64,000 nt of DNA, taken from Candidatus Micrarchaeota archaeon (GTDB lineage Archaea; Micrarchaeota; Micrarchaeia; Anstonellales; Bilamarchaeaceae). This document shows positions 18,204-34,433 of this stretch, one piece after another; the first letter of the stretch is position 1; every line of letters begins with the position of its first letter. The stretch is from assembly GCA_016926175.1 (NCBI GenBank), contig JAFGPA010000009.1, positions 54-64,053 of the forward strand. Reading direction: 5' to 3'. The position numbers were made by a program, and so were the translations under genes. The notes beneath the pieces are model-generated. The model ran no database searches. It saw only the letters and a list, made by a program, of their open reading frames with translations, and was not told the origin of the DNA.

Positions 18204-18267
18204 TCCCATTGTTCATAAAATGTTTTGCAAATTTTTAAAAACTTTACTAATGGAGGGAGGTTTTAGT

Positions 18268-19977: not shown

Positions 19978-20751
19978 TCATTCTTCATCTTCAGATTCGT
20001 TTTCAGCTTCATTGCCCGGCCTTCCAATTCCTTTTCCAGGTATCTCATCCTGTCCGCCAGTTTTGTTCTGAGTCTGATTATGGATCTGCTCCTGTGTTCT
20101 GTTCTGGGTTTCACTCTGGTTTTTGTCTTCTTTTTCGCCTGGCCTCTCCTGCGTCATTTTACCTTCCCGCTCCTGCATTCTTTCCATGTGCCTTTCCTGG
20201 TTCATTATTGAGTTGTTTAGGGCATTAAGCACTCCTTCCTTTGCCTGTGCAGGTACTTTTTCATATACTCTCTGAAGGACTCTTATGCTGTTTCTCACTT
20301 CATTTTGTACCTGCTGAACATCTTCCTCATCTGCACTGCCTTCGTCAACTGCTTCTTCAATGGCATTTTGTGCGGCCTGGTTTTCCTCATTTTGTTCTGT
20401 GGTTGCCTGCTCAATAAGCCTCAGGGTTTGATTTAATCCTGCCTGATCCCCCTGTGCAGCAAATTTTTGTGCCTTGCCGGAAAGAACATGTGCCTCAACT
20501 GCCCTGAGCATTCCGTATTTTGCATGCTTTCTGGCCTTTTCAGCCTTGTCAAATGTGAAGAATTTATCGACATTCTCAAAAAATCTTTTGAATCCATAAG
20601 TGAATTCGCCCGGAAGTGTCCCTACTTCGCTTTCATTTATTATTATATCCAGTTCATCATTTGTGACATTTACATTCTCTTCACTGTTCTCTGCAAATGC
20701 AGGGACAACAAGCATTCCCAAAGCAACAATCAACAATACAAACGCTTTCAT
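19978..20751 (-). CDS. Secreted acidic coiled-coil protein (DUF5667-like N-terminal motif)
   Basis: Signal peptide MKAFVLLIVALGMLVVPAFA. LPGEFTYGFKRFFENVDKFFTF motif. Gln/Glu/Asn-rich low-complexity C-terminus. Confidence 0.6.
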   Translation of the reverse strand: MKAFVLLIVALGMLVVPAFAENSEENVNVTNDELDIIINESEVGTLPGEFTYGFKRFFENVDKFFTFDKAEKARKHAKYGMLRAVEAHVLSGKAQKFAAQGDQAGLNQTLRLIEQATTEQNEENQAAQNAIEEAVDEGSADEEDVQQVQNEVRNSIRVLQRVYEKVPAQAKEGVLNALNNSIMNQERHMERMQEREGKMTQERPGEKEDKNQSETQNRTQEQIHNQTQNKTGGQDEIPGKGIGRPGNEAENESEDEE

Positions 20752-20831: not shown

Positions 20832-21653
20832 ATGAACAAGGCCGTATTTCTGACACTGCTGCTGCTATCGCTTGGCTTTTCATCTGTCATCTACACTGTT
20901 GATACTGACAGAGCCGGCTTTTCATATGTTACGGTCTCACTTGGGCAGGAAACATCCACAAACGTCAGCCTGCCTGCAGATGCAAACAATTTCCTTATAG
21001 TAGGAGGATCATATCGGTTAATCAACGGCACGTCACTTGTTTCCCCGGGCTTATCCGGCATAACAACATTCTCATTTACCAGTGAAATCATGACATCCAA
21101 GTCAGGTTCCGAATGGAAACTTAATTTTTCCCCGCCTGAAAATTCCAATGTCTATGTTTACATGCCTGGATTTGCAACAATTGTTTCCTCTTCCATACAA
21201 CCTTCAGCTGTTTCGTCAGAAAATTTCAGGACAGTTCTGCAATTTGATTCACAGGAAGCAATTACAATCTTCTACAGGCTTGATGAGGAATATGCTGAAC
21301 CGGAAAGCGATTCGACACTGATTCTTGCAGCTGCAATTATTGCAGCGGCAGTTATTGCCGCCCTGATAATCCGGCAGAGCAGCAAAAAGACCGGGAAAAA
21401 ATCATCATTGCACATTACTCCGGGAAAAAAGGAAATGATGGAAACGTTTAATGAAAATGACACTAAAATAGTTCTTTATTTATTACAGGAAAAAGGAAAA
21501 GCAAAAAGGAATGATCTTGAAAGAAAAACAGGAATAAGCAAATCAAGCCTTGCGATGGCGCTGAACCGTCTTGAAAAAAGAAAAATAATCGAAATTGACA
21601 GGGGGGCAACAACCCATTTCGTCAGGCTTTCCGAGTATTTTCTGAAACTGTAG
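20832..21653 (+). CDS. Membrane-anchored wHTH regulator (signal peptide - ectodomain - TM - cytoplasmic MarR/TrmB-like wHTH)
   Basis: TM LILAAAIIAAAVIAALII + RQSSKKTGKK, then NDTKIVLYLLQEKGKAKRNDLERKTGISKSSLAMALNRLEKRKIIE. Confidence 0.65.
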   Translation: MNKAVFLTLLLLSLGFSSVIYTVDTDRAGFSYVTVSLGQETSTNVSLPADANNFLIVGGSYRLINGTSLVSPGLSGITTFSFTSEIMTSKSGSEWKLNFSPPENSNVYVYMPGFATIVSSSIQPSAVSSENFRTVLQFDSQEAITIFYRLDEEYAEPESDSTLILAAAIIAAAVIAALIIRQSSKKTGKKSSLHITPGKKEMMETFNENDTKIVLYLLQEKGKAKRNDLERKTGISKSSLAMALNRLEKRKIIEIDRGATTHFVRLSEYFLKL

Positions 21654-21661
21654 GTGAAAAA

Positions 21662-22051
21662 ATGAAATACGCAATTTTATTGGCAATTATTCTGATTGCA
21701 GGATGTACTTCAGATAATGGACCTGCCGATACAACCGGAACTGTTCCGGCCGGCACATCTGAAGGTCCGGAAGACAGGAGCGGAACAATCACAACAACGG
21801 GGTATGCTGATTGTATGGAGCGCTGCGAATCTGGCGGGCCTGGAACCGGGCCATACTGCAAGGACGGCTGCAGGTTTGAACAGGCAGAAAATACAAAAGA
21901 TCTTTTCTACTGCAACCAGATGGACCAGAAAGAAAGCATTCCAGAATGCTATGGGACAGTTGCAATTGCTGCCGGAGATATAAAAATCTGCGACAAGCTG
22001 TCAAACCCGGAAGACCGGAATCACTGCCTTGCAGCATTCAGCCCAAGATAA
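21662..22051 (+). CDS. Small Cys-rich lipoprotein
   Basis: Lipobox-like LIAGC, Thr/Gly/Pro linker, then regularly spaced Cys (CMERCESG, CKDGC, CYGTVAIAAGDIKICDKL...HC). Confidence 0.6.
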   Translation: MKYAILLAIILIAGCTSDNGPADTTGTVPAGTSEGPEDRSGTITTTGYADCMERCESGGPGTGPYCKDGCRFEQAENTKDLFYCNQMDQKESIPECYGTVAIAAGDIKICDKLSNPEDRNHCLAAFSPR

Positions 22052-22080: not shown

Positions 22081-22593
22081 ATGAAAAGGGGGATGATATT
22101 TGCAGGCGGCCTATTGTTAGGGATCCTGGTCACTTATATTGGCACATTGTTTTTCATCGTGCCTGTCAATACTGTTTTTTCTCCGGATGACGGACGTGAA
22201 ATAATCGATCTCATAGATTCTGCAGAAGATTCAATTGACATTGAGATGTATGTCTTTACATCCCGGGATGTTGTTGAAGCTCTGGAACGGGCAAAAAACA
22301 AAGGAGTGGAAATAAGGATCATAGTGGAAAGATCAACCATAAGCGGATCCAACAAGGAAATATTCAATGAACTTTCTGCAAAAGGGTTCAGAGTCAAATA
22401 TGCATCAACAGCATTCCAGCTTACCCATTCAAAATTCATGATCCTTGATGGAAAAGTTGTTTTTGTCGGATCGCACAATTTCAGCAATTCTGCGCTGTAC
22501 AAAAACCGCGAAGCATCAGTAATAATATACAGTGAAAAAACAGCAGGCGAATTCCAGGAAACTTTTAATTATGACTGGAGCCTAGCTTCTTGA
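22081..22593 (+). CDS. Membrane-anchored single-HKD phospholipase D superfamily protein (Nuc-like endonuclease)
   Basis: N-terminal TM. One HKD motif HSKFMILDGKVVFVGSHNFSNSA. Its 170-aa size matches Nuc-type homodimeric nucleases. Confidence 0.8.
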   Translation: MKRGMIFAGGLLLGILVTYIGTLFFIVPVNTVFSPDDGREIIDLIDSAEDSIDIEMYVFTSRDVVEALERAKNKGVEIRIIVERSTISGSNKEIFNELSAKGFRVKYASTAFQLTHSKFMILDGKVVFVGSHNFSNSALYKNREASVIIYSEKTAGEFQETFNYDWSLAS

Positions 22594-23580
22594 AATTACA
22601 TATTTGCCATAAAGCCTTGCAAATACCTTGTATCTTCCGCGTTCAATCTTTGTTATCTGGCCACGGTCCAGCAGCCTTTTTACCAGCGCAGTAACAGGCC
22701 CGAGAGGGATTTTCAGTTCATTTGCAATGTCGGAAACATGGATAAAATCCCTTCTGGAAATTGACAGCAGTATCCTTCTCTCTGCAACGGGCGTTTCCTG
22801 ATACATTTTTCCAAACCATTCGCGGCCAAGCATGTTCATGATATGGGGCAAATATGCAAGATAATGGCCTTTGGATATTACCTTTTCATTCTCCCTTAGC
22901 CTGTCATAGATATGGTGGCAGACGGTTTTGAAAAGCCTTGGGTTGCCCTCGCTGTCATTCATTATTGAGCTGAAGCATTCCTCCCCCATCCTAAGCTCTT
23001 TTTCCAGTGCCTTTTCTACAACCTCCCTTGCCTCATGTTCTGCAAAGGGCTGTAAAACCATGGCTCTTTCTGATTTCATTTCTTTTGTACTGGTCATTAC
23101 AACTGAAATCCCCTGTTCAGCTGCCTTTTCAATTATTTCTATGGCTTCTTTCGCCTTTTTCATCCTGTCGATATCGTCGACAAAAAGAATTGTACCGAAA
23201 TGCCTGGGGCTGCTTGCAGTTTCCAGCAGTTCCCCGAAGCTTTCCGGAGTATTTCTTCTTATCTCCAGATTTGGTATGGCCCTGGTTTCCTGATAGAGCT
23301 TGTCTACCATAGCCTCCATTCCCTCTCCTTTCTCTATTTTAACATAAGGGGCCAGGGCACCCTCTTTTCTGGCAATATGGCTGAAATGCCTGATCAGGGT
23401 GGTTTTTCCTGTTCCCGGTCCTCCAGTTATCATTAATATTCCCGGCTGGCCTGAAACCGCTCCGTTGACGAAAGTGTTAAATATCCTGACTTCGTCTTTT
23501 CTGCCTATAATGTTTTCCGGATCTATTTCATATATCTGGAATGGATTTGGACCTTTCATTAAAATCCCTTTTTCATGCAA
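22582..23580 (-). CDS. AAA-type ATPase with C-terminal wHTH (archaeal ATPase / Orc1-Cdc6-like fold)
   Basis: Walker A GGPGTGKTT, Walker B ILFVDDIDR, C-terminal wHTH VSDIANELKIPLGPVTALVKRLLDRGQI. Confidence 0.75.
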   Translation of the reverse strand: MHEKGILMKGPNPFQIYEIDPENIIGRKDEVRIFNTFVNGAVSGQPGILMITGGPGTGKTTLIRHFSHIARKEGALAPYVKIEKGEGMEAMVDKLYQETRAIPNLEIRRNTPESFGELLETASSPRHFGTILFVDDIDRMKKAKEAIEIIEKAAEQGISVVMTSTKEMKSERAMVLQPFAEHEAREVVEKALEKELRMGEECFSSIMNDSEGNPRLFKTVCHHIYDRLRENEKVISKGHYLAYLPHIMNMLGREWFGKMYQETPVAERRILLSISRRDFIHVSDIANELKIPLGPVTALVKRLLDRGQITKIERGRYKVFARLYGKYVISRS

Positions 23581-23645
23581 AGCCGGGTTTTCCGCTTTTC
23601 TGGTTTTTTTAATCCTTTTTAAAGGTTTTGGTTGGGTTCAACCAG

Positions 23646-23668
23646 ATATGGCAGGATTCCTGCCATAT
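23646..23668. promoter_or_regulatory. Perfect 23-bp palindrome in the divergent promoter region (candidate operator)
   Basis: atatggcagga-t-tcctgccatat, 11-bp arms with no mismatch, between the ATPase-wHTH gene and the giant ORF. Confidence 0.45.
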
Positions 23669-23753
23669 ACGAACACTACTTTGTTGTTTTTACAACAAAA
23701 AACTACAATCCATGTAGTTTCTGTAGTTTCCATAGATACTATAAACCTAAACC

Positions 23754-23761
23754 TTTTTAAA
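23754..23761 (+). promoter_or_regulatory. TATA box candidate for the giant ORF (leaderless spacing)
   Basis: tttttaaa ends 22 nt before ATG 23784. Confidence 0.4.
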
Positions 23762-23783: not shown

Positions 23784-26700
23784 ATGACAGCCATAAGAAG
23801 TTTGTTTGGAATGTTTTTGTTCATGGTCCTGGTTGGCAGTGTATTTGCTCAGCTGGGCCTTGGTGGCCAGTCTTTCGAAAAGGAAAGCGTGGTCTACTAT
23901 GAAACTGACGCAACACGTCAGGTCCTCACTATCAGTGTGGTGGCATTTGAGCCGGCACAATCCCAGGACGGCACTCAGCTCACTGATACCATAAAGCAAG
24001 AGCTTTTAGCCGAATGCAGGGCAGAAGGAGCAGATAATATCATGGTTTGCCTGCAGAGAAAAGCCTTGGAGAGAACTGCCGCTTCAACTGATTACAGGCT
24101 GGATATGGAATCTCTTCAGGAAGGCACTATTACAGTATATCAGTGGAATGCCATCAGCAAAACATACGTTGTGGTTCCAACATGTACCCAGATTCCAATA
24201 AACAATGTCAGAACGGTAACTGACTCAAGCGGAGAGGCTGTCGACAATTATTATACTACATGTGATCTTTCAGGTGAACTTGAAGGGGCAACCTCGGCAA
24301 GCTTTGTCATTGAATACGAACCCCAGGAAGGTTCAGGCATAGCTCCGAGTACAACCACCTATTCCTATGACAGTGCCCGTGTTGCAGGTACAGATGCTTT
24401 AACCCAGCAGATCAACCAGGTTATAAGCGCAATATCAAGTGGCGGGGCAAACGGAACCCCGGCACTTCCATGTGTTGGCATATTCCTTATTCTGGGTCTG
24501 TTGCTGTCATCACTTTATTTCGCTGGCAAATCACCAGTTTCATTGCTCGATATCACCACACCAAGACTTCCGGCACCCAAGGGAGTAGCTGCAGGCGGAC
24601 AGATGCTCATGCCTTTTGGTTATGCGGAAATGGGAAGAACCACAAAAGCTAAAATGAGGACTGCTGCCGTAGCTGCCGGAGTGACTGCAGCCGGACTTGC
24701 TACAAAAAGCAGAGGAGATGTTGAAAGGCGCCAGCTTGAAAGCCAGGTGGATGCAACAGCAGCCAAAGCAAGCCGTGCGCATGTTGTTTCAGGAGATGTT
24801 GGAGAACAGGCCAATATACAGAAGGCGCTCATAGCAGGAGGAAGAGAAGCTGGAATGAGCCGGGCAGAGCTCGATAAGCTTTCAAGAAGACTTCTCTATG
24901 ACTACGGAGATTCAGAGCACAGGACAGTTGCACAGATACTTGAAAAGCTTAAGGCAAAGGGAGGAAAAAACGCTCTCATGGCAATGACTCTCCAGGACTA
25001 TATAATAGGCCAGAGGCAGCTTAAAACACTTGAAGCAATTACAACCCATCCTGACATAGGAAAAAGAGACTATGTTAGCGGTAAAATCTCAAGTGTCACC
25101 AGCAAGGCATTTGGTGTAAACAGATATGCAATAATCGGCGGTTTTGTTCCGGCCATGGTGGGTTCAACTACAAGAACTGCAAGGCAAATGGTCAGAATGA
25201 GCAAGGCATCAGTTAAACAAGCACCCAACCTGGTCAAAGCAACAGCAAGATCCACAATTGAACTTGTTGGAGGCAAGAGAGCGGTTGAAGAGCTTGAATA
25301 CAAGGCAAAGACTTCCCAGACTGCAGGATGGTTTGCAGGGCAGCTCAAGGAGAATCCTGCGTCTGTCATTGTCGGACAGTCATTCCCGGTAAGCGACAAG
25401 GCAGGATACTTCTACAAGCAGCTCAGGGATGAGGCTCACCACGATTCAATGAGATATCTTTTAAGACAGATCTACAAGAAGATGGGTGTCAAGTTCAATG
25501 TTTCCGAAGAAGAAATGGCGCAGATGGGCCATGTTGACATGGACATCCTGAAGAGATCAGGCTACAAGCCAACAAAAGAAATGCTTGCAATGGAAGCAGA
25601 ACTCAGGGGAATATTAGGAGACAAATCAAAGAGTTTCCTGGAAAAAGTAAATGCACTGACAGCATTTGCAGAGAGATGCGGAGCACACGTAGACCACAAT
25701 GCAATTGCGTTCACACAAAAAGTGGAATCAATACATATGTCTGTGGAAACAGACCATGGCAAGATGCTCCTGCTTCAGGAAGAGCTTGAAAGGCAAAGCA
25801 GGGTCAGGGGCTCAAATGTTCATGACGATGCATTTGTATGCCATATTGGCGGAGACACCCTAAGAGGCCCGGCCATCTGGGAAACTATGGTTCTTCGTAC
25901 AATGATCTACGATGCAGAAAATGGGCACCTCCAGGGAGGTATCCGCGAAGAGCTTCTGTCAGCCAGACTTAACACTGCAAACAGACTTGCAACTCTTGAT
26001 CCAAGCCATGCAGGTGCAATGGAACAGCTTCCGGAACACATGAGAAACCAGGCACAGCTTACGGCAGTTGCAGAAAGAAACAGGTCAGAACTGGTTCAGC
26101 TGTTCTCTGAAGAAGGGAAAGCAGCATTCCAGAAATCCCACAAGGACGGAAAGTCCATGGAGTCTGCTTCACTGCATGAAATAGTTGCATTCATGTATGG
26201 CGGAGGAGTCAAAGAAAAGGCAACCGGACACGTCGATCCAAAAACAGGAAAGATGATGTGGTGGGGTGCAGACCAGGAACACACAGTTCCAAAGGATTAT
26301 GCCCTTGTCGATGTCAAAAGACACTGGGTTGACCACGTAAGTGTACAGGACAACTATGCAATAGGGCAATGGGTGGAGTCCAGGTTCACAAGGAGCTATG
26401 TTCCGGCAGCCCGGGCATCCATTGAAGCAGAGCTCGACAGAATGCCAGGTTCAGCGGCATGGACAGTTGAGGAAAGGGCAAAACAGGCCAAAAAGCTCTG
26501 GATACGGGACGAAATGATCAAGGACTTCGAGCAGAGATTCAACTCACAGTTTGCAAATAATGCCTACGGCGGAACAACAAGGGAAACTGCAAGATTCTAC
26601 AATGGCATTGCAATGGGATTCCTTGCAAAGGCACTGGAAGAAAAGGGACTTTCATCCAATCACCCGGATGCAATGTTCCTTCAGGGCATTGACCACACCA

Positions 26701-28526
26701 ATCCACAGCACATTGGAAAAATGAGAGAACTTCTCTTGCTCCACCGGGATGCATATGAGAAGGTTGCACACAGGGATGTCACATATAATGATGTTGCCAA
26801 GTCCAGCAAGCCAATGGTTATGCTCCATGAAGGTGGATTTGCATACTATCACAAGGGCATGATGCTGTCAGATGCAGACCGTGTTATGGGCGGACAGGTG
26901 TCCATCCGGGATAACAACGGCCAGATGAGGGCATTTGTTCCTGATGATGTTGTAGTGAAATTCGGAGCAAGGGATGACCTTACAGCACAGTTCTACAAGG
27001 CAAGAGGCTCAAAGGATCCAAACGAATGGCATGGATTCCTTGATGCAGCAACCAAATGGACAAAGGAAGGCAACTACAGCTATGAAAAGGAGAAAGTGCT
27101 CGCAGCAGTGCTCTGGGAATACTCCAACAGAACCTATGATTATGAAAGATTCTGGAGCAAGAGTGCAGTTACTGTTGAATCCAAGAGGGAAGTGGCTCCT
27201 GTTGCACCCTCCTTCCTTAGATTCTTTGGTGCTGACGGCCACAAATACGATACAATGATCAAACCATTCAGGGACATTGGTCTTCATGCAGGAGATTATG
27301 TCTCCAAGGTTGCACTTGAAGCAGGGGGACCTGTTCATACAGCATCCTATGAAATCACTCCGACTTCAGAGTACTACAGGCAACACTCATGGAAGCTTGC
27401 AGAGAGGATAATGTCCGGGCAGGACGTTGCCCAGCTCTCAGATGCAGAGAAAGTTGCATACAGGAATTATGCACTTTCTCAGGGTGCATACCACCAGGTT
27501 TGGGACTATTCAATTGACAGGAACCCCTGGAGAACATCCACATCATTCGGAGCTGCACAGTCATGGGCATCATTCTTCCACTTTGGTCCTGCACAGAACT
27601 TTAACGTCAGGGACAACCTCAGGGCATACATGGGCAAGGGAGAGTATACCGGCTTTATGGCAACCCATGGGTTTGCACTTGACCTTGCAGGCAAAATGAT
27701 GAGGCCATACCTTGGGGCAATAAGAGGTATGCAGATGTCTATGCAGGGATATGCATCCAAATGGGACAGCCAGGACAATGCCCTGAGACAATGGAACTAC
27801 ACACAGCCAAGGCTCAGGGAAGCACTTCAGTCACTCAACCCATTCTCATACAGATGGTTCCCAGGCAAGACAAGCGAGAATATTGCCAAGCTCAATGTCT
27901 TTGGCGGTTCACTTGAGCAGCACCAGCTTGCAGGTCCTGAATATATGGCCGGCCTCAAACAGGCTCCACAGGACATATTCCTGCAGAGAAAGGGTGTCTA
28001 TGCCTCGGCAAGAACTGGCGAAGCAAACCCGGCAGCGTCTTTCTACAACTACAGACACGAACTCATGTACGATGCTCCAATGGCAGAGTATATGATCAGG
28101 CAGAAGGACGCATCCTTCATGTACGACAAGAAAGTACAGGATGCAGCAATGAACAACACCCAGAGAAGGACAGTGTCTGCAGAAGCACTTGCAATCAGAA
28201 GGGAAGAGGAACTCAGGGGATTCGGAATTATGCAGAACCCGCTTTACGGCTGGGCCAACCCGATAGCATTCCTCTGGCACGCACCTCTTCCGATGATGCC
28301 ATCATCCCTTACGCCAAAGGACATAGTGGCAAATGCAGTGAGAAAGCACAAGTATGGCCAGGGCGGATCCTGGAATGACACAATGAACCAGCTTGGGCAG
28401 AACATATCCAAGGGAACCAAGGATATACTCTCGCCACACATGCTTCACAGGACAGTTTACTGTCCCAGCTGCGGCAGAAGCGGCTACAGGGGAGCAAGAT
28501 GCGGCTGCGGCAAGCCTCTCTATTGA
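23784..28526 (+). CDS. Orphan giant membrane-anchored protein with C-terminal zinc ribbon
   Basis: Uninterrupted 1580-codon ORF. Signal peptide, ~200-aa ectodomain, TM ALPCVGIFLILGLLLSSLYFAG, >1300-aa unassigned region, terminal CPSCGRSGYRGARCGCGKPLY. Confidence 0.85.
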   Translation: MTAIRSLFGMFLFMVLVGSVFAQLGLGGQSFEKESVVYYETDATRQVLTISVVAFEPAQSQDGTQLTDTIKQELLAECRAEGADNIMVCLQRKALERTAASTDYRLDMESLQEGTITVYQWNAISKTYVVVPTCTQIPINNVRTVTDSSGEAVDNYYTTCDLSGELEGATSASFVIEYEPQEGSGIAPSTTTYSYDSARVAGTDALTQQINQVISAISSGGANGTPALPCVGIFLILGLLLSSLYFAGKSPVSLLDITTPRLPAPKGVAAGGQMLMPFGYAEMGRTTKAKMRTAAVAAGVTAAGLATKSRGDVERRQLESQVDATAAKASRAHVVSGDVGEQANIQKALIAGGREAGMSRAELDKLSRRLLYDYGDSEHRTVAQILEKLKAKGGKNALMAMTLQDYIIGQRQLKTLEAITTHPDIGKRDYVSGKISSVTSKAFGVNRYAIIGGFVPAMVGSTTRTARQMVRMSKASVKQAPNLVKATARSTIELVGGKRAVEELEYKAKTSQTAGWFAGQLKENPASVIVGQSFPVSDKAGYFYKQLRDEAHHDSMRYLLRQIYKKMGVKFNVSEEEMAQMGHVDMDILKRSGYKPTKEMLAMEAELRGILGDKSKSFLEKVNALTAFAERCGAHVDHNAIAFTQKVESIHMSVETDHGKMLLLQEELERQSRVRGSNVHDDAFVCHIGGDTLRGPAIWETMVLRTMIYDAENGHLQGGIREELLSARLNTANRLATLDPSHAGAMEQLPEHMRNQAQLTAVAERNRSELVQLFSEEGKAAFQKSHKDGKSMESASLHEIVAFMYGGGVKEKATGHVDPKTGKMMWWGADQEHTVPKDYALVDVKRHWVDHVSVQDNYAIGQWVESRFTRSYVPAARASIEAELDRMPGSAAWTVEERAKQAKKLWIRDEMIKDFEQRFNSQFANNAYGGTTRETARFYNGIAMGFLAKALEEKGLSSNHPDAMFLQGIDHTNPQHIGKMRELLLLHRDAYEKVAHRDVTYNDVAKSSKPMVMLHEGGFAYYHKGMMLSDADRVMGGQVSIRDNNGQMRAFVPDDVVVKFGARDDLTAQFYKARGSKDPNEWHGFLDAATKWTKEGNYSYEKEKVLAAVLWEYSNRTYDYERFWSKSAVTVESKREVAPVAPSFLRFFGADGHKYDTMIKPFRDIGLHAGDYVSKVALEAGGPVHTASYEITPTSEYYRQHSWKLAERIMSGQDVAQLSDAEKVAYRNYALSQGAYHQVWDYSIDRNPWRTSTSFGAAQSWASFFHFGPAQNFNVRDNLRAYMGKGEYTGFMATHGFALDLAGKMMRPYLGAIRGMQMSMQGYASKWDSQDNALRQWNYTQPRLREALQSLNPFSYRWFPGKTSENIAKLNVFGGSLEQHQLAGPEYMAGLKQAPQDIFLQRKGVYASARTGEANPAASFYNYRHELMYDAPMAEYMIRQKDASFMYDKKVQDAAMNNTQRRTVSAEALAIRREEELRGFGIMQNPLYGWANPIAFLWHAPLPMMPSSLTPKDIVANAVRKHKYGQGGSWNDTMNQLGQNISKGTKDILSPHMLHRTVYCPSCGRSGYRGARCGCGKPLY

Positions 28527-28558
28527 TCTTTTAATTTTTTCTCTTCTAATTTTATTAT

Positions 28559-31159
28559 ATGAGATTTCCTGTTTTGCTAATTATAATGATCTTTATTTCC
28601 GGTTGCCTGCAGAGTATAGGCTCTGAAGAATTCAGAAATGACTACATCCGAAACCTGCACAGAACTCCAATAAATGATCCTTCACAGATTGAAGAATGCA
28701 AAATAGGAAGCTGCTATTGCATGGTGTGCCAGAACGGAAGTCCGATATGGGGGGGCATATGGAACAATCTTGTTGGCGGCAGATGCTACATGGAAACGGA
28801 ATGCACGCCCGAACGGGCAATGGAGCTGAGGAACAGCACAGCGACACCTGATCTTTCAATAAGAAATTTCATGCTTGGCCAGGGACCGTCCATTGGCGAC
28901 TTTTCCGATGCCAATCCCTATTGCTCCAACAAACTTTCAATGGCAGTGGAATGGCTTGTGGGGAATGCTGACAATGCCTATGAAATGCCTGATGCAGGCA
29001 GGGCACTATGCGTGCTGAGCAGGGAAATAATTCCGGTTTATATTCTTTACAGTGAAGGAGAAAATATCAATGCTGCCCGTGCAGGGGAGATTGGCCGTAG
29101 CCTTGCAAATGACGGCCAGAGCCTTTACCAGGGCTTTCTTACTCCCGGGCCGGTCGGTCCCAATATTGTTGTTACCGAAATCGATTACGATATTTCTGAT
29201 GCAGGCCAGATAATCGAGCAGATTCGTGCAGTGAAGAATGCATGCGGCGATGCCTGCTGGGTTGCTGTTGCACCAAAAATCGGTGATACCGAAGCGCTTG
29301 ATGCAGTGATGGCAAGTGCAGGGGATCAGGTTGATGTCATTGCATTTGGAGTTAATGGAAATTATGTTGATGCCTGCAGTTCTGGAAGAATAAGCTCGCA
29401 GAAGATGATGAACCAGGTTGTCAATTTCACTGAATATGCAGTTTACACCTATGGAAAGCCAGCTTTAATACCCTATATAATGTTTGATCCTGATACCACT
29501 GACATAAACGGATGCGTCTGGAAGGAAAGTGATGTGACAGCGGCATATGGCGCATTCATACCCGGAGGAATCCAGCGCCTGAGAAAAATCGGAGTGATCG
29601 GCTTTGCACCATATTCATTTAACTCAACCAGCTTTGGCTCTGTTTCCAATCCGCTGAAATGTGCCAACTGTGCAATTGCTTCAAATGAGCAAAGGCTCAG
29701 GGCATACTATGGAGCATGCCAGCAGTATACAAACATTTCAGGAACGCGGCCATCATATGGCAACGAGATTCTTTATCCAAATGAATCAGCGGGCTTCTGC
29801 GATTTCGGTACAAGCATTGAGGGCCTGCTCAGGGAGACCAGCTATGCCAGTGTGGGCGGAAACCGGGATTATCTTTCTCCAAATGCGCCGGAACTCAGGC
29901 CTGTCGGCACTCCATCATTCAGATGCAGTTCCTGCCTTTTGAGCAATATTACCTCCAATCCTGTTGCGCCGTTTAATTTTGGAGGCACAGCATCTGTTGA
30001 TTCTTCAAGTTTCCACGGCTGCATTGAATACCAGGATGAAATAAATGCATGGGCAGATGCAAGAAACCTTGATCCCATGCTTGTACGTGCATTTGCATTG
30101 ATTGAAAGCAATCTTGATCCAGGTGCGGCTGCAAGAGTGTGCAAGGAAGGATATACAGGCACAGGTCCTGACGGAAGACCATGCTTTGAAGCAAGCCCTG
30201 CACAGGATGAATGCTATTCAAATGCATACCGGATAATGGACGATCCGTCTGGAACATACGATTTTGCCGATGCTCCGGATGCAGAAGACCTTGATGAAGA
30301 CCCAGACTGGAAATGGTGCGGCCTTGGTTTTATGCAGTCACTGGAGCCTCCCTATACATTGTGGCCGGCATCTGTAAATCCAAGCGGAGAGCCCGGCGAG
30401 TTTGCGTGGGCATGCGATGATGCGGGAATCTGCTCTGAAAATCTTCTCGTTGTTGCAAGGGGATGCGCGGCGGAAACAGATCCTCCCGGGCAGTTCAATC
30501 CATTCAATATTTCACATTCACTGTGCATTGGAACATACAAGATGCAGCAGGGTCTGAACGCTGCAAGAGGAATAGTCCGCCAGATGAAAAGCGACGGCCT
30601 TCTTGTAAACAGCAATGCTGAAAACGAGGAAGTGCTTGCAGCTTATATAATGGCCCAGATGTACGGCGGTTCCTGGGGGATTACAGGAAGTAGTATGAAA
30701 ACAGTGAATGGCGTTCTTCCCCCATGCGGAAGCGAAACCTCTGCCGGGGACTGCTTCAGAAGCCTGTTTGCAGAGAATATGCGATGGAACAGGGACGCCT
30801 GCGTGGAAGACAGCGGCGGGGAACTTCCCTGGCAGTGCAGTGAAGAAGGCGTGCCAAGATGGCAACCTCCGGAATACTGTTTTGGGGAAAGCGATCCTGC
30901 TGTTTTCTGGGACCAGTGCATCCAGCCATTCCTGACAACTCCTAACAATCATGGAAATGTAAAAATGAAGCAGTTCTTTGCTCTGCAGAGTTGCAGTACC
31001 AATCTTTGTCCTGACGGCCTGAAAATGCTCAACGATATTTGCACTCCTGATGAAAGCGGAACACTAAATGAAGAGCTGTGCGAAGGCCCTGGAAGGCCGA
31101 GAATTCCTGAATCAGGAAGCTACTATGCACAGGCTGCAGAGCAGGCACAAGACAACTGA
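28559..31159 (+). CDS. Cys-rich secreted lipoprotein with alternating beta/alpha N-domain and lysozyme-like (GH23 / SLT-like) C-terminal signature
   Basis: Lipobox-like FISGC. LVRAFALIESNLDPGAAA (catalytic-Glu-like ES at nt 30104-30109), GLGFMQS (about nt 30320-30340), AYIMAQMYGG. Starts 33 nt after the giant ORF. Confidence 0.7.
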   Translation: MRFPVLLIIMIFISGCLQSIGSEEFRNDYIRNLHRTPINDPSQIEECKIGSCYCMVCQNGSPIWGGIWNNLVGGRCYMETECTPERAMELRNSTATPDLSIRNFMLGQGPSIGDFSDANPYCSNKLSMAVEWLVGNADNAYEMPDAGRALCVLSREIIPVYILYSEGENINAARAGEIGRSLANDGQSLYQGFLTPGPVGPNIVVTEIDYDISDAGQIIEQIRAVKNACGDACWVAVAPKIGDTEALDAVMASAGDQVDVIAFGVNGNYVDACSSGRISSQKMMNQVVNFTEYAVYTYGKPALIPYIMFDPDTTDINGCVWKESDVTAAYGAFIPGGIQRLRKIGVIGFAPYSFNSTSFGSVSNPLKCANCAIASNEQRLRAYYGACQQYTNISGTRPSYGNEILYPNESAGFCDFGTSIEGLLRETSYASVGGNRDYLSPNAPELRPVGTPSFRCSSCLLSNITSNPVAPFNFGGTASVDSSSFHGCIEYQDEINAWADARNLDPMLVRAFALIESNLDPGAAARVCKEGYTGTGPDGRPCFEASPAQDECYSNAYRIMDDPSGTYDFADAPDAEDLDEDPDWKWCGLGFMQSLEPPYTLWPASVNPSGEPGEFAWACDDAGICSENLLVVARGCAAETDPPGQFNPFNISHSLCIGTYKMQQGLNAARGIVRQMKSDGLLVNSNAENEEVLAAYIMAQMYGGSWGITGSSMKTVNGVLPPCGSETSAGDCFRSLFAENMRWNRDACVEDSGGELPWQCSEEGVPRWQPPEYCFGESDPAVFWDQCIQPFLTTPNNHGNVKMKQFFALQSCSTNLCPDGLKMLNDICTPDESGTLNEELCEGPGRPRIPESGSYYAQAAEQAQDN

Positions 31160-31176
31160 GAAAACAGAAGCCATTT

Positions 31177-32307
31177 CTATTTCAGCCATTCTTTTCCTTC
31201 TATTTTTTTCTTGATGTATTCTCCTACAAATGTAAGCCTTTCGCCCTGCAAAGCATCCTGCTCAATCTTTTTCTTGGTTTTCAGCACAAGCTTGAGTTCG
31301 TGGACCCAGTCCTTTGACCTGTTGATCCACGGATAGCCGAGCATCTCTTCAGCCCTTTTGATGTCAACTTCCTTTGCCCTGATTGTCAGCTTGTCAAGAA
31401 ACTTGAATTCTTCAATGTCGCTCATTGTTACCCCTATGAATTTTGCTTCTGGAACAGCAAAATCCCTTCCAAGATATGCAAGGTTCATGCTTCCTGTCTT
31501 GATTGTCCAGTAGATGTACCATCCCCACGCATCACAGTCCATAAGGCAATATACCGGCAGTTTTCTGTCTGCAAGCTTCCTCAGCAGCCTTCTTGTTCCC
31601 CTTGTCGACTGCCCCTTTGGCGTGACCAGCAGGCAGTTTTCCTTTTTCCAGAATTTGTCTTCATTCAGTCTTTGCCAGAGGGCATCTTTTTCCACTACAA
31701 GAACCCACTCTGCATCCAAGGATTCAATATCCATCCCATTATCGACATCAGATGGGATGGACCATCCTGACCTTCCCTGTTTTGAAAGGTCTATCAATGT
31801 TTCTTCACCGCCAAACCTGTCCCTGATGGTCATTCCCCCTGCCACAAATCCCTTCCTGTCTGTTGTAAGGTTGAGATCCTCTCTTTTCAGCTTCAGTGCA
31901 ACTTCCAGGTCTTCGATCAATGCATTGGATTCGCTCTGCTCTGTGAAAAGATCCTCATCCATTTCCTCCCCAAGTGAGAACTTCAGCTGGTAGAAAAGAC
32001 CCCTGATTGAGGTGTGCAGGTCCTGCTCCAGGAATGTTTTTGATTTTGCAGCAATTGCAACAGTCTGCATGAATGTCCTTGCCTGTGCAACTGAAAGATA
32101 TTTCCTCAGTTCTTTTTTATCGCCTGTTCTGAGACAGCCCAGCCCTTCATCATAAATGGTATTGCCTTTTGTTCTCAAAGTGGTTTCAAATGTCGGGCCT
32201 TCTCCTGCATGGATCTGCACAACCATGTCTTTTCCGAGCTTTTCAAGCTTCTCCTTCGCTTTCATCTTTCTCCTCCTCAATTCTTTCGGTGGTTTCGGGC
32301 TCATCAT
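31177..32307 (-). CDS. top6A: DNA topoisomerase VI subunit A (Spo11-like)
   Basis: RGLFYQLK region with the catalytic Tyr, Toprim VLVVEKDA and CLMDCDAWG. Alternative start MKAKEK at 32265; overlaps the top6B end. Confidence 0.9.
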   Translation of the reverse strand: MMSPKPPKELRRRKMKAKEKLEKLGKDMVVQIHAGEGPTFETTLRTKGNTIYDEGLGCLRTGDKKELRKYLSVAQARTFMQTVAIAAKSKTFLEQDLHTSIRGLFYQLKFSLGEEMDEDLFTEQSESNALIEDLEVALKLKREDLNLTTDRKGFVAGGMTIRDRFGGEETLIDLSKQGRSGWSIPSDVDNGMDIESLDAEWVLVVEKDALWQRLNEDKFWKKENCLLVTPKGQSTRGTRRLLRKLADRKLPVYCLMDCDAWGWYIYWTIKTGSMNLAYLGRDFAVPEAKFIGVTMSDIEEFKFLDKLTIRAKEVDIKRAEEMLGYPWINRSKDWVHELKLVLKTKKKIEQDALQGERLTFVGEYIKKKIEGKEWLK

Positions 32308-33944: not shown

Positions 33945-34433
33945 ATGCAACGTTCGTCCCAAGTAACCCGTCAAATACCACAATCTGAATACTCCAGGAC
34001 TGCCCTCAGGGGAAAACAGCTGCTTGAAGAATCAATAAGATGCCCAAAAAGAGAAAACCGGGCCCTCAGGGTTCTTGTTCTGGACGATTGCCCGGAAGTA
34101 CTGTTCCTATACCAGGATCTTCTCAGGTCGGACAATGTGCAGATTTTTGCTCCAAAACCAGTCAATTCAGTAAAAGAGGCAATGGACCTTGTCCGGGAAG
34201 TGAAGCCGGATCTTGTGATCAGCGATCTTTGCCTTACCATGGGCCGCACTGAGGGGTTTGAAATTCTGGCCAGAATCCGGAAAGAAATGCCTTTTGTTCC
34301 AGTTGCCCTTTCCACAAGCAGCTATCCCTATCAGCATGATCTTGTTGCAGAGATAGATAAAAAGGAATTTGATGCTGTTTTTAACAAAGGCGATCTTAAG
34401 GGACTTCAGGATTTTATCTCTAGGAACCTCTGA
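33945..34433 (+). CDS. Orphan response-regulator receiver (CheY-like) protein
   Basis: VLVLDDCPE acidic pair, DLVISDLCLTMG phospho-acceptor region, ALSTSS, FNKGD. No histidine kinase in the window. Confidence 0.65.
   Translation: MQRSSQVTRQIPQSEYSRTALRGKQLLEESIRCPKRENRALRVLVLDDCPEVLFLYQDLLRSDNVQIFAPKPVNSVKEAMDLVREVKPDLVISDLCLTMGRTEGFEILARIRKEMPFVPVALSTSSYPYQHDLVAEIDKKEFDAVFNKGDLKGLQDFISRNL

What the first reader, a model, noticed from the sequence alone, without database searches (positions are those of the whole stretch)
23784..28526. Orphan 1580-aa membrane-anchored giant protein ending in a zinc ribbon
This is the longest ORF in the window. It is uninterrupted, and I cannot assign any part of it to a known family. 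Its layout is a cleavable-looking signal peptide (MTAIRSLFGMFLFMVLVGSVFA/QLG), a ~200-aa Thr/Ser-rich ectodomain and one strong TM helix (ALPCVGIFLILGLLLSSLYFAG). More than 1300 aa of Ala/Lys/Glu/Met-rich, Cys-poor sequence follow, ending in CPSCGRSGYRGARCGCGKPLY (C-x2-C-x10-C-x-C). A TATA-like tttttaaa sits about 22 nt before the ATG. The next gene starts 33 nt after the stop, so the two look co-transcribed. A small outside part, a very large inside part and a terminal Zn ribbon do not resemble an S-layer protein or adhesin. The layout looks more like a scaffold coupling a surface event to the cytoplasm.
Basis: partly seen in the sequence, partly recalled or inferred. Interest (0 to 1): 0.78.

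Follow-up and report, generated by a model that had tools for sequence, protein, structure and literature searches.

The report
Micrarchaeota giant inside-facing membrane protein family
The 1,580-residue protein is real but is not an orphan: it belongs to an undescribed family found so far only in the tiny symbiotic Micrarchaeota archaea, has a confidently predicted shape unlike any solved structure, and is always encoded next to a secreted wall-cutting-type enzyme, so it probably anchors a cell-surface machine from the inside.

Summary
The ORF (23784..28526, +, 1580 aa) and nearly all described features are confirmed. "Orphan" is wrong. At least 116 clusters (50% identity) of mostly ~1,500-2,000-aa relatives exist, and every named one is from Micrarchaeota MAGs. 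None is in Pfam, NCBIfam, PHROGs, PADLOC or PDB. Family-wide statistics support a signal peptide, an acidic disulfide-type ectodomain, one TM helix, a ~1,330-aa basic cytoplasmic part and a C-terminal Zn ribbon. AlphaFold2 gives a confident compact alpha-rich body (pLDDT 83.5, pTM 0.85) with no Foldseek match in PDB or BFVD. The TM helix and a predicted-unstructured juxtamembrane motif are the most conserved parts. Synteny is deep: a divergent AAA-wHTH ATPase upstream (38/40 loci), an 866-aa Cys-rich lipoprotein downstream (34/40, also in remote relatives), often a membrane-anchored Nuc-like PLD and Topo VI. The lipoprotein probably carries a divergent lytic-transglycosylase/lysozyme-like domain. 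Best reading (confidence ~0.4): the giant is the membrane-spanning hub of a Micrarchaeota-specific envelope module, tethering or controlling extracellular hydrolases from a cytoplasmic platform. Its biochemical function remains untested. It is a new family and, as far as tested, a new fold.

The parts
23713..23730 (+). Tandem direct repeat TGTAGTTTC x2, about 55-70 nt upstream of the giant's ATG. It matches a TAGTTT(T)CAT element found at about -60 in most homologous loci. Candidate regulator binding site (inferred).
23754..23761 (+). TATA box (TTTTTAAA) of the giant gene, 22 nt before the ATG. The family consensus is cATTTATAAAGCG at the same distance, implying a very short leader or none.
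23784..28526 (+). Giant gene, 1580 aa plus stop: member of a Micrarchaeota-restricted family with no match in any family library searched.
23784..23849 (+). Signal peptide, aa 1-22 (basic n-region, hydrophobic core, VFA/Q).
23850..24464 (+). Ectodomain, aa 23-227. Acidic (pI 4.1), with four (near-)invariant Cys (C78, C89, C134, C160). Predicted beta-sandwich with two helices (pLDDT mostly 85-96); only non-significant Ig-like similarity.
24465..24524 (+). Single TM helix, aa 228-247 (LPCVGIFLILGLLLSSLYFA). Conserved on all faces: mean top-residue frequency 0.85, versus 0.41-0.50 in the flanking regions.
24525..24638 (+). Juxtamembrane signature, aa 248-285 (GKSPxSLLDITTPRLPAPKGVxAGGQxLxPFGY). 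With the TM helix it is the most conserved part of the family and is kept in the most remote relatives. It is predicted unstructured in isolation (pLDDT <50 for 254-275). Inferred docking motif.
24639..28343 (+). Cytoplasmic body, aa 286-1520. Basic, Cys-poor, mainly alpha-helical and compact (AF2 model of aa 345-1544: pLDDT 83.5, pTM 0.85). No internal repeats. No Foldseek match in PDB or BFVD.
26829..27191 (+). Small module, aa 1016-1136 (short beta strands plus three helices; HEGG...SDxDR...PEDVxVxF.GRDDL...KVLAAVLW.Y..DY..FW). It also occurs as free-standing 120-250-aa proteins in other Micrarchaeota, once in the same cluster as a full-length giant.
28344..28451 (+). Poorly conserved basic linker, aa 1521-1556 (low pLDDT at the end of the model).
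28452..28523 (+). C-terminal zinc ribbon, aa 1557-1580: C-x2-C-x9-C-x-C. C1560, C1563 and C1575 are invariant and C1573 nearly so. Doubled in some remote relatives.
28559..31159 (+). Conserved partner: 866-aa lipobox protein (…FISGC), pI 4.3, 4.4% Cys with about 30 invariant Cys. Same restricted phyletic distribution as the giant and adjacent locus tags.
30011..30553 (+). Probable divergent lysozyme-like/SLT (GH23-type) domain of the partner, aa 485-665. Invariant catalytic-type Glu516 in ALIES, followed by CGLGFMQ.
22582..23559 (-). Divergently transcribed AAA_16-type P-loop ATPase with a C-terminal winged helix (Walker A GGPGTGKT, Walker B FVDD). Present next to the giant in 38/40 loci. Likely start is the ATG at 23559, not the TTG at 23580.
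22081..22593 (+). Single-HKD PLD-family (Nuc/NucT/DrmC-like) enzyme with an N-terminal membrane anchor (aa 6-33), so probably extracytoplasmic. Found in 26/40 loci and in remote locus L046.
21662..22051 (+). 129-aa Cys-rich lipoprotein (…LIAGC). Detected in only some loci (6/40 by tblastn).
20832..21653 (+). Membrane-anchored regulator: signal peptide, ~140-aa outside domain, TM 162-180, cytoplasmic winged helix (14/40 loci).
19978..20751 (-). Secreted acidic DUF5667 protein with a signal peptide (14/40 loci).

Best explanation
The giant is the membrane-spanning core of a Micrarchaeota-specific cell-envelope module.

Shown:
- It is a type-I bitopic protein. A small, acidic, disulfide-type ectodomain faces outward. 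One TM helix follows, and about 1,330 residues lie in the cytoplasm: a compact alpha-rich body of unknown fold plus a flexible, basic, Zn-ribbon tail.
- It is encoded in a deeply conserved cluster with an extracellular Cys-rich lipoprotein, a membrane-anchored Nuc-like PLD enzyme and a cytoplasmic AAA-wHTH ATPase.

Inferred:
- The ectodomain holds or positions the lipoprotein, which probably carries a lysozyme/lytic-transglycosylase-like glycan-cleaving domain, at the cell surface.
- The TM helix is conserved on all faces, so it probably packs into a protein bundle, either a homo-oligomer or with the anchors of neighbouring gene products.
- The invariant but unstructured juxtamembrane motif is a docking site just under the membrane.
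- The cytoplasmic body and Zn ribbon form a platform that links the surface enzymes to cytoplasmic partners such as the AAA-wHTH ATPase.
- The module would serve envelope-glycan cleavage and scavenging at the contact with a host or prey cell, in line with the proposed role of secreted murein transglycosylases in other DPANN. Remodelling of the organism's own envelope is the alternative.
For: Family and distribution:
- The family is real, full-length and restricted to Micrarchaeota.
- It is absent from IMG/VR viral contigs.
- It sits among housekeeping genes (TopA, PGK, CorA, TFB, Topo VI), not in a mobile or defence island.

Topology:
- Only two hydrophobic segments occur family-wide.
- Cys is 2.34% in the ectodomain versus 0.16% in the body. 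The positive-inside rule holds in 82/100. A C-terminal CxxC is present in 97/100.
- pI is 4.7 outside versus 9.1 inside.

Structure:
- The body model has pLDDT 83.5 and pTM 0.85. The ectodomain model is confident.
- No match in PDB or BFVD. No PDB sequence or profile hit.

Conservation:
- The TM helix and the juxtamembrane segment each score 0.85, against 0.41-0.50 for the flanks. The juxtamembrane segment has pLDDT <50.

Synteny:
- AAA-wHTH 38/40, partner 34/40, PLD 26/40.
- Remote relatives keep the partner (hmmsearch E 1.4e-119 and 2.3e-59) and Topo VI; one has a 4-nt overlap with the giant's stop.
- The partner family has the same distribution and adjacent locus tags.

Partner's enzyme domain:
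- 18/30 orthologs hit Pfam SLT, best 2.3e-5.
- 10 of 11 PDB hits of the sub-profile are lytic transglycosylases or goose lysozyme, all aligned on the catalytic helix. Glu516 is invariant.

Neighbours:
- The neighbours are exported or membrane-anchored.

Literature:
- Secreted lytic murein transglycosylases in DPANN, including three Micrarchaeota genomes, have been proposed to attack bacterial walls (PMC5864196; PMC8204110; PMC9723730).
Against: - No physical or co-expression evidence links the giant to the lipoprotein, the PLD or the ATPase. Conserved adjacency could partly reflect frozen ancestral synteny, since Topo VI is conserved there too.
- Two remote relatives (L041, L044) lack an adjacent partner.
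- The SLT assignment is sub-threshold for individual proteins. Scores are 13-16 bits against Pfam's 21.3-bit cut-off and cover only model positions 3-35. The window's own copy has no Pfam hit even at E<=0.5.
- The partner may have its own promoter.
- A 1,200-residue, highly conserved compact body is more than a passive tether would seem to need, so it may have an enzymatic or mechanical activity that this explanation does not capture.
- Topology rests on sequence rules; no dedicated predictor or experiment was used.
Confidence: 0.4

Rival explanations
1. Outside-in signalling receptor. The ectodomain senses a surface event such as host contact or a wall fragment. The conserved TM and juxtamembrane region is a cleavage or switch site (regulated intramembrane proteolysis or oligomerisation). 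The cytoplasmic body with its Zn ribbon is then released or activated to act on nucleic acids or on the AAA-wHTH regulator.
For: - Small sensor-like ectodomain. The TM helix contains conserved Pro and Gly residues. The juxtamembrane motif is extremely conserved and unstructured.
- The Zn ribbon sits on a flexible basic tail.
- A wHTH ATPase is divergently transcribed, with conserved upstream repeats.
- A second membrane-anchored wHTH regulator lies in the cluster.
Against: - No protease is encoded in the conserved cluster.
- A released domain of about 1,300 aa would be unprecedentedly large for such a pathway.
- No DNA-binding or sigma-binding domain is recognisable.
- The body's basic pI is not distinctive, because other cytoplasmic proteins of this genome also have pI around 9.
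Confidence: 0.15
2. Cytoplasmic structural scaffold for cell shape, division or membrane remodelling. The giant forms a sub-membrane lattice or ring, with the TM helix as anchor, and the extracellular hydrolase merely follows its localisation. This would be analogous to RodZ/MreB or FtsEX-type coupling in bacteria.
For: - Large compact alpha-helical body with very long helices of 46, 59 and 37 residues.
- One gene per locus at a fixed, housekeeping chromosomal position across the clade.
- High conservation of the body.
- A free-standing copy of one body module exists in some genomes, which could co-assemble with the giant.
Against: - No similarity to any known cytoskeletal or ESCRT/FtsZ-associated protein.
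- No coiled-coil-type repeats or internal repeats.
- pTM 0.85 indicates a globular rather than filamentous monomer.
- FtsZ is encoded elsewhere in at least one Micrarchaeota genome (L043), so a canonical division system exists.
Confidence: 0.15
3. Membrane-tethered nucleic-acid machine for DNA/RNA uptake, processing, or anchoring of the chromosome. A homo-oligomer of the giant would work with the surface Nuc-like PLD nuclease and the wall-cutting lipoprotein to bring in host nucleic acids. The basic body and Zn ribbon would handle them in the cytoplasm, and the AAA-wHTH ATPase would supply energy or DNA binding.
For: - A membrane-anchored single-HKD PLD of the Nuc/NucT type is conserved next to the giant.
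- AAA-wHTH ATPase is adjacent in 38/40 loci.
- The tail is a basic Zn ribbon.
- The TM helix is conserved on all faces, as expected inside a helix bundle.
- Linkage with Topo VI persists.
- From general knowledge: DPANN commonly lack nucleotide biosynthesis and must scavenge.
Against: - A single TM helix per chain is a poor channel former unless highly oligomeric.
- No nuclease, helicase, translocase or OB/HhH-type domain was detected in the giant.
- The PLD could equally be a phospholipase.
- The basic pI is not specific.
- Topo VI linkage may be plain ancestral synteny.
Confidence: 0.12
4. Ordinary surface protein (S-layer, adhesin) with the bulk outside the cell.
For: - It has an N-terminal signal peptide and is very large. 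DPANN are known for giant surface proteins (general knowledge).
Against: - After the signal peptide the only TM helix is at 228-247, so the 1,330 residues behind it lie on the opposite side from the exported 23-227 segment.
- The body has 0.16% Cys versus 2.34% in the ectodomain and 4.4% in the truly extracellular partner. It has half the sequon density, and pI 9.1 versus 4.3-4.7 for the exported parts.
- A Zn ribbon is at the C-terminus in 97/100 members.
- There is no C-terminal anchor.
Confidence: 0.03
5. Artefact: a chance ORF or an assembly chimera.
For: None found.
Against: - The same length and architecture occur in more than 100 independent clusters from many samples and assemblers.
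- The promoter is conserved.
- The AF2 models are confident.
Confidence: 0.01

Closest known systems
[quoted passage not shown]
   Same: These are DPANN archaea encoding exported proteins with an SLT/GH23-type domain, interpreted as tools to bind or degrade the cell walls of bacterial hosts or prey. The 866-aa partner here probably carries such a domain.
   Different: - In those proteins the SLT domain is part of the giant extracellular protein itself (up to 3,000 aa).
- Here it sits in a separate Cys-rich lipoprotein and is so divergent that Pfam misses the window's copy.
- It is paired with a giant whose bulk is cytoplasmic and which has no SLT domain.
- The giant itself is not described in those papers.
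Bacterial inside-to-outside control of wall hydrolases by membrane proteins (FtsEX-EnvC/PcsB, RodZ-MreB type coupling) - from general knowledge
   Same: The logic is the same: a membrane protein with a cytoplasmic part, near an ATPase, that positions or regulates an extracellular glycan or peptide hydrolase.
   Different: - No sequence or structural similarity.
- Single-pass rather than multi-pass.
- The cytoplasmic part is about ten times larger.
- The host is an archaeon with no recognised murein. The upstream operon was checked and encodes no murein synthesis genes.
- No evidence of regulation.
Podovirus internal virion/ejection proteins (T7 gp16-like) and tape-measure proteins
   Same: They are very large, mostly alpha-helical proteins that cross or contact a membrane and are associated with an SLT domain. 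They were the top (non-significant) BFVD hits.
   Different: - Foldseek E 0.02-0.1, TM-score 0.06-0.09 and rmsd above 30 A are noise level.
- No PHROG hit.
- No relative on viral contigs.
- Chromosomal, with deeply conserved synteny across the clade.
Zinc-ribbon-tailed single-pass membrane proteins (Pfam Zn_ribbon_3, DZR, zf-tcix type modules)
   Same: A four-Cys ribbon lies at the cytoplasmic terminus. Weak Pfam hits to these models occur in several family members.
   Different: In the known families the ribbon is usually N-terminal and attached to small proteins. Here it is a C-terminal appendix on a 1,300-aa body, and all Pfam scores are below the curated cut-offs.
Giant host-interaction proteins of other DPANN (e.g. 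SPEARE proteins of Nanohaloarchaeota) - recalled from my own knowledge, not checked here
   Same: Lineage-specific giant proteins in ultrasmall symbiotic archaea, suspected to mediate host contact.
   Different: As I recall them, those are largely extracellular mosaics of recognisable domains (protease, adhesion, nuclease). This giant has no recognisable domain and faces the cytoplasm.

Membership tests
Archaeal S-layer protein / surface adhesin | Bulk of the protein extracellular, after an N-terminal signal peptide | tested here: not met
   The only TM helix after the signal peptide is at aa 228-247. The Cys, charge, sequon and pI asymmetries place aa 248-1580 in the cytoplasm. This is inference from sequence rules, not experiment.
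Archaeal S-layer protein / surface adhesin | C-terminal membrane anchor or sortase-type (PGF-CTERM) signal | tested here: not met
   The C-terminus is a soluble Zn ribbon, and there is no hydrophobic segment after aa 247.
Zinc ribbon (Pfam Zn_ribbon_3 / zf-tcix / DZR) | Two Cys knuckles (CxxC ... CxxC/CxC) conserved across homologs | tested here: met
   C1560, C1563 and C1575 are invariant and C1573 is at least 90% conserved. A CxxC lies in the last 70 residues in 97/100 members.
Zinc ribbon (Pfam Zn_ribbon_3 / zf-tcix / DZR) | Score above Pfam's curated cut-off | tested here: not met
   The window protein has no hit. Relatives reach E 9e-4 to 0.3, for example Zn_ribbon_3 at 17.6 bits against a 27-bit cut-off.
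SLT / GH23 lytic transglycosylase (for the 866-aa partner, not the giant) | Catalytic Glu in the E-S motif on the first helix, followed by a GLMQ-type motif | tested here: met
   ALIES (E516 invariant, S517 at least 90% conserved) and CGLGFMQ (G590 invariant, Q593 at least 90% conserved). The profile alignment places the Glu on the catalytic Glu of EtgA.
SLT / GH23 lytic transglycosylase (for the 866-aa partner, not the giant) | Significant match to the family model over the whole domain | tested here: inconclusive
   18/30 orthologs hit PF01464, best E 2.3e-5. The hits inspected score 13-16 bits against a 21.3-bit cut-off and cover model positions 3-35 only. The window copy has no hit at E<=0.5. 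Ten of 11 PDB sub-profile hits are transglycosylases or lysozyme, but each has E 0.2-1.1.
SLT / GH23 lytic transglycosylase (for the 866-aa partner, not the giant) | Lysozyme-like fold and glycan-cleaving activity | not tested
There is no biochemical assay.
Orc1/Cdc6 replication initiator (for the AAA-wHTH neighbour) | Score above the family cut-off, with an AAA+ lid and a Cdc6-type C-terminal winged helix | tested here: not met
   TIGR02928 scores 30 bits against a 181.3-bit cut-off. The winged helix matches HTH_24/MarR, not Cdc6_C. The profile against PDB gives Cdc6/ORC hits at only 2e-8 to 1e-4, and only on the P-loop half.
Phage internal virion / tape-measure proteins | Structural or sequence similarity, and a viral genomic context | tested here: not met
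   BFVD best E 0.021 with TM about 0.06. No PHROG hit. No relative in IMG/VR. The flanks are housekeeping genes.
Anti-phage defence system (DISARM/BREX-like, suggested by the PLD and AAA_16 neighbours) | Core defence proteins present, and a variable island-like context | tested here: not met
   The giant and the partner have no PADLOC hits. The PLD matches DrmC models (7.9e-21), but no DrmA/B, helicase or methylase was seen among the neighbours scanned. The cluster has a fixed position across the clade, next to TFB and Topo VI.
Type IV secretion / conjugation module (VirB1-type SLT plus Nuc-type PLD) | VirB4/VirD4-type ATPases and VirB6/8/10-type channel proteins in the cluster | tested here: not met
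   None was detected among the window genes scanned at 7.4-19.2 kb and 20.0-34.4 kb, or in the precomputed Pfam annotation of the homologous loci.

The most novel reading that the evidence does not exclude
The giant is the core of a previously unknown archaeal trans-envelope machine. In this reading, oligomers of its all-face-conserved TM helix and juxtamembrane motif form a gated conduit. The conduit is served outside by a wall-cutting lipoprotein and a surface nuclease, and inside by a 1,200-residue new-fold platform with a Zn-ribbon arm and an AAA-wHTH ATPase. Micrarchaeota would use it to breach a host or prey envelope and import nucleic acids or other macromolecules. It would be the symbiont-side apparatus of DPANN parasitism, which has not been identified molecularly.
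Probability: 0.12. Interest if true: 0.9.

Novelty: categorically new. Interest (0 to 1): 0.66.

Why it matters
Micrarchaeota and other DPANN archaea are a large share of archaeal diversity and live by attaching to other cells, yet the symbiont-side molecules of that lifestyle are almost unknown.

This gene takes up roughly 0.3-0.5% of a genome of about 1-1.5 Mb (one carrier chromosome is 1.57 Mb). It is conserved in length, architecture and position across every Micrarchaeota lineage in which it was found. It has a confidently predicted fold with no relative in PDB or BFVD.

Its fixed pairing with an exported, probably glycan-cleaving lipoprotein and a surface Nuc-like enzyme gives a concrete, testable candidate for a host-contact or scavenging apparatus. 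It is also a clean target for structural biology, being a new large alpha fold, and it could serve as a phylogenetic marker for the clade.

Tried and rejected
- **Library searches with the giant:** Pfam, NCBIfam, PADLOC and PHROGs searches of single proteins, all 25 aligned members, five remote members and five long members found nothing except weak Zn-ribbon hits.
- **PDB by sequence and by profile:** nothing.
- **Foldseek:** the body model against PDB and BFVD, and the N-terminal model against PDB, gave no hit with E<=0.001. The karyopherin, ABC-transporter, internal-virion-protein and Ig-Fc hits were rejected as noise (TM <=0.15, or <=0.43 only when normalised to tiny targets).
- **Own murein-like wall:** I tested the idea that the upstream + strand operon is a murein (dcw-like) cluster, which would give the SLT partner a substrate. 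Rejected: the genes are a MacB-type ABC transporter, TopA, PGK, CorA and TFB.
- **Orc1/Cdc6 and replication origin:** I tested whether the AAA-wHTH is Orc1/Cdc6 and the intergenic repeats mark an origin. Rejected on scores. GC skew and gene orientation converge rather than diverge here.
- **Defence island or prophage:** rejected.
- **Internal repeats or domain duplication:** none found; hhalign probability <=1.9%.
- **Short proteins as assembly fragments:** mostly rejected. They have their own N-termini and lie on long contigs. In L043 neighbouring small ORFs match different, non-collinear parts of the giant. Their meaning remains open.
- **Basic pI as evidence for nucleic-acid binding:** rejected as non-specific.
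- **Literature:** the four searches found no description of this family.

Full report
**1. The observation**

The ORF at 23784..28526 (+) is uninterrupted, 1580 aa, starts with ATG and is the longest in the window; the next longest is 962 aa. The described layout is there:
- a hydrophobic N-terminus MTAIRSLFGMFLFMVLVGSVFA/Q;
- a Thr/Ser-rich acidic segment, aa 23-227 (pI 4.1, 4 Cys);
- one strong hydrophobic helix at 228-247;
- a long Cys-poor remainder (2 Cys in 1160 aa, Ala 10.8%, Met about twice that of other window proteins);
- the terminal motif CPSCGRSGYRGARCGC. Its spacing is C-x2-C-x9-C-x-C, not x10.

TTTTTAAA lies at 23754-23761, 22 nt before the ATG. The next gene starts at 28559, 33 nt after the stop. 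No Pfam, NCBIfam, PADLOC, PHROGs or PDB-sequence match exists for the protein.

**2. Not an orphan**

A search of 5.8 billion proteins returned 60 relatives, nearly all full-length, at 27-100% identity and about 1,560-1,670 aa. Every named one comes from Candidatus Micrarchaeota, Micrarchaeia or Bilamarchaeum MAGs. One is an identical record, JXA56_01225. A scan of one genome per GTDB species found the gene in 39 species, all labelled Micrarchaeota or given placeholder names.

A full HMMER profile search of 1.84 billion representatives with the cytoplasmic body found 116 clusters at 50% identity, 66 of them with E<=1e-30. These include remote relatives of 1,500-2,000 aa that match in several stretches. 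Those that carry names are again Micrarchaeota. NCBI places Bilamarchaeum in Microcaldota; Micrarchaeia; Anstonellales. No relative was found on IMG/VR viral contigs.

The remote relatives keep the whole architecture: signal peptide, Cys-containing ectodomain, the TM and juxtamembrane signature, and one or two C-terminal Zn ribbons. The ORF is therefore a real gene of a real, undescribed, clade-restricted family, not a chimera.

**3. Topology**

Hydropathy finds only the two hydrophobic segments in 25/25 aligned members. Across 100-103 members:
- Cys is 2.34% in the ectodomain against 0.16% in the body.
- K+R in the 15 residues flanking the TM averages 0.63 on the ectodomain side and 1.89 on the body side (body side higher in 82/100).
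- N-x-S/T sequons are twice as dense in the ectodomain.
- pI is 4.7 for the ectodomain, 9.1 for the body and 9.8 for the tail.
- 97/100 have a CxxC within the last 70 residues.

Four ectodomain Cys (C78, C89, C134, C160) are invariant or nearly so. All of this supports N-out/C-in: about 205 residues outside and about 1,330 inside. It is inference from sequence rules; no dedicated predictor or experiment was available.

**4. Structure**

AlphaFold2 on aa 345-1544 with a 57-sequence alignment gave mean pLDDT 83.5 and pTM 0.85. The model is a compact, mainly alpha-helical body with some very long helices and two small beta regions.
- Foldseek against 350,542 PDB chains found nothing better than E = 0.15 with TM <=0.12.
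- Against BFVD the best hit was E = 0.021 with TM about 0.06. The internal virion and tape-measure proteins at the top are long-helix noise.
- A profile of the whole family against PDB sequences found nothing.
- There are no internal repeats.

The model of aa 1-420 (pLDDT 83.3) shows a beta-sandwich ectodomain with two helices (pLDDT mostly 85-96), the TM helix, and well-defined helices 277-419. Its best PDB matches are non-significant Ig-like sandwiches (E >=0.019). AFDB and HHpred could not be searched here, so "new fold" holds only for PDB and BFVD.

**5. What is most conserved**

The TM helix (228-247) and the following segment 248-285 (GKSPxSLLDITTPRLPAPKGVxAGGQxLxPFGY) each have a mean top-residue frequency of 0.85. 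The signal peptide scores 0.49, the ectodomain 0.41 and aa 286-420 score 0.50.

The helix is conserved on all faces. That is what one expects of a helix packed against protein rather than lipid. The juxtamembrane segment is predicted unstructured in isolation (pLDDT <50 for 254-275), which is typical of a docking motif. Both points are inference.

**6. A module that also exists on its own**

Residues about 1016-1136 (short beta strands plus three helices) also occur as free-standing proteins of 120-250 aa. These have their own N-termini and sit on contigs up to 157 kb.
- In one metagenomic contig a 145-aa copy lies in the same cluster as a full-length giant.
- In another genome (L043) it sits in a row of small ORFs, one of which matches a different part of the giant.
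- The window has no separate copy.
- No Pfam family matches the module.

I cannot explain these small proteins.

**7. Gene neighbourhood**

tblastn of the window's proteins against 40 homologous loci gave these counts:
- the divergently transcribed AAA-wHTH gene (22582..23559, -) in 38/40;
- the downstream 866-aa gene in 34/40, the rest mostly being contig ends;
- the PLD gene in 26/40;
- Topo VI A/B in 27/40.

The most divergent first-round homolog (27% identity) has the same order. Remote relatives keep it too:
- L045 has an AAA-like gene, the giant, an 879-aa partner homolog (E 2.3e-59), then Top6A/B.
- L046 has PLD, the giant, and a 792-aa partner homolog (E 1.4e-119) whose start overlaps the giant's stop by 4 nt, with Top6A/B nearby.
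- Two remote relatives (L041, L044) lack an adjacent partner.

The partner family has the same restricted distribution and adjacent locus tags. The wider flanks are housekeeping genes: a MacB-type ABC transporter, TopA, PGK, CorA, TFB and Topo VI. This is a fixed core region, not a mobile or defence island.

**8. The neighbours are envelope proteins**

- **Partner (866 aa):** a lipobox (…FISGC), pI 4.3, 4.4% Cys and about 30 invariant Cys.
- **PLD enzyme:** an N-terminal membrane anchor and an intact HxKxxxxD motif. It matches NucT and DrmC models.
- **orf129:** a Cys-rich lipoprotein.
- **The 273-aa "wHTH" protein:** a signal peptide, an outside domain, a TM helix and a cytoplasmic winged helix.
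- **DUF5667 protein:** a signal peptide.
- **AAA-wHTH:** the only wholly cytoplasmic member. It has Walker A and B motifs and only generic P-loop/ORC-like similarity, far below the Orc1/Cdc6 cut-offs.

**9. The partner's enzyme domain**

The motif ALIES…CGLGFMQ suggested a lytic transglycosylase.
- Pfam misses the window's copy, but 18 of 30 orthologs hit SLT (PF01464), best E 2.3e-5.
- The hits inspected are sub-threshold: 13-16 bits against a 21.3-bit cut-off, covering model positions 3-35 only.
- A sub-profile of aa 485-665 against PDB gave 11 hits at E<=10. Ten are lytic transglycosylases or goose-type lysozyme (EtgA, EmtA, Slt/LtgA, GEWL), all aligned on the catalytic helix with the invariant Glu516 on the catalytic Glu.

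I therefore call the domain a probable, divergent lysozyme-like/SLT domain, not a proven one. Published work has reported exported murein transglycosylases in DPANN, including three Micrarchaeota genomes, and proposed that they attack bacterial walls (PMC5864196, PMC8204110, PMC9723730). None of these papers mentions the giant.

**10. Transcription signals**

The giant has a strongly conserved TATA box (consensus cATTTATAAAGCG) 22-30 nt before the ATG in most loci, and a conserved TAGTTT(T)CAT element near -60. The window carries the latter as the tandem repeat TGTAGTTTC x2 at 23713-23730.

The giant-partner spacer is 32-243 nt in most loci. It often contains a T-rich TATA-like element about 30 nt before the partner's ATG. 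Co-transcription cannot be decided from sequence.

**11. Interpretation**

Shown:
- a real, clade-restricted family with no match in any family library searched;
- a type-I topology with the bulk inside (by sequence rules);
- a confident model without structural relatives in PDB or BFVD;
- deep linkage to an exported Cys-rich lipoprotein, a membrane-anchored PLD and an AAA-wHTH ATPase.

Inferred: the giant is the membrane-spanning hub of an envelope module, holding or controlling the extracellular enzymes from a cytoplasmic platform (confidence about 0.4).

The rivals are an outside-in receptor (0.15), a sub-membrane structural scaffold (0.15), a nucleic-acid uptake or tethering machine (0.12), an ordinary surface protein (0.03) and an artefact (0.01). 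The remaining probability is for functions not listed. The size and conservation of the body suggest an activity of its own that none of these readings specifies.

**12. Novelty and score**

The giant matches no known family by sequence or, within the libraries available, by structure, and I found no description of it. I rate the family and fold as categorically new. The partner's enzyme domain is a new variant of a known kind, and the overall logic resembles known inside-outside coupling systems.

Interest is 0.66. It is a concrete, testable candidate for the unknown symbiont-side apparatus of a major archaeal clade, but no function has been demonstrated.

Noticed in passing
window 18220-19188 (+): This 322-aa protein is 89-100% identical (best tblastn segment) across the homologous loci. 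It is transcription factor B (TFIIB repeats plus Zn ribbon). It is usually a few kb upstream of the giant cluster.
   Followed up: yes
window 20832-21653 (+): The winged-helix regulator is membrane-anchored: signal peptide, ~140-aa extracellular domain, TM 162-180, then a cytoplasmic wHTH (weak Csa3/CARF-type PADLOC hits over aa 121-268). It looks like a one-component transmembrane transcription factor; its ligand and targets are unknown.
   Followed up: partly
window 22081-22593 (+) and 22582-23559 (-): The PLD gene and the AAA-wHTH gene converge and overlap by 12 nt at their 3' ends. The AAA ORF listed from the TTG at 23580 most likely starts at the ATG at 23559, because the family consensus begins MKGPNPF.
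   Followed up: partly
window 23590-23700: The 224-bp divergent intergenic region holds several short inverted repeats (ggttgggttcaacc, ggcaggattcctgcc, ttgttgtttttacaacaa) besides the TGTAGTTTC tandem repeat. They could be operators for the wHTH proteins. Only the TAGTTT element and the TATA box were checked for conservation.
   Followed up: partly
window ~28000-32000 (whole-window profile): Cumulative GC skew peaks at about 28-30 kb. Gene orientation switches from mostly + (1-19 kb) to mostly - (31-64 kb), so genes converge on the giant/partner/Topo VI region. This is compatible with a replication fork convergence zone or simply with strand bias of transcription. GC is also higher here (0.47-0.49 versus 0.42-0.45).
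   Followed up: no
L043 4290-6239; JGI 3300075153 contig: Free-standing 120-250-aa proteins are homologous to giant aa ~1016-1136. In L043 they lie in a row of five small ORFs, one of which matches giant aa 771-832 out of order. In another contig a 145-aa copy lies about 4 kb from a full-length giant. Either the giant arose by fusion of small proteins or these are spin-off modules.
   Followed up: partly
P0226-P0230 (e.g. P0229 on OY970229.1, the chromosome that also holds L027): Short (289-356 aa) proteins carry the partner's SLT-like Cys-rich domain. At least some Micrarchaeota therefore have a second, smaller paralog of the putative glycan-cleaving enzyme elsewhere in the genome.
   Followed up: no
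window 31177-32307 (-) and 32243-33829 (-): Topo VI subunits A and B are adjacent, and the listed ORFs overlap by 65 nt. Their linkage to the giant-partner pair persists even in remote relatives (L045, L046), which is unusually stable synteny for functionally unrelated genes.
   Followed up: partly
L045 7114-7914 (-): The AAA-wHTH homolog next to a remote giant is only 266 aa. It matches the family profile at positions 5-62 and 170-331, so much of the ATPase core appears to be deleted. The ATPase activity may be dispensable in that lineage.
   Followed up: no
window 33945-34433 (+): A stand-alone response-regulator receiver domain protein (162 aa) lies just beyond Topo VI B and is conserved in 7/40 loci. 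No cognate histidine kinase was found among the neighbours examined.
   Followed up: no
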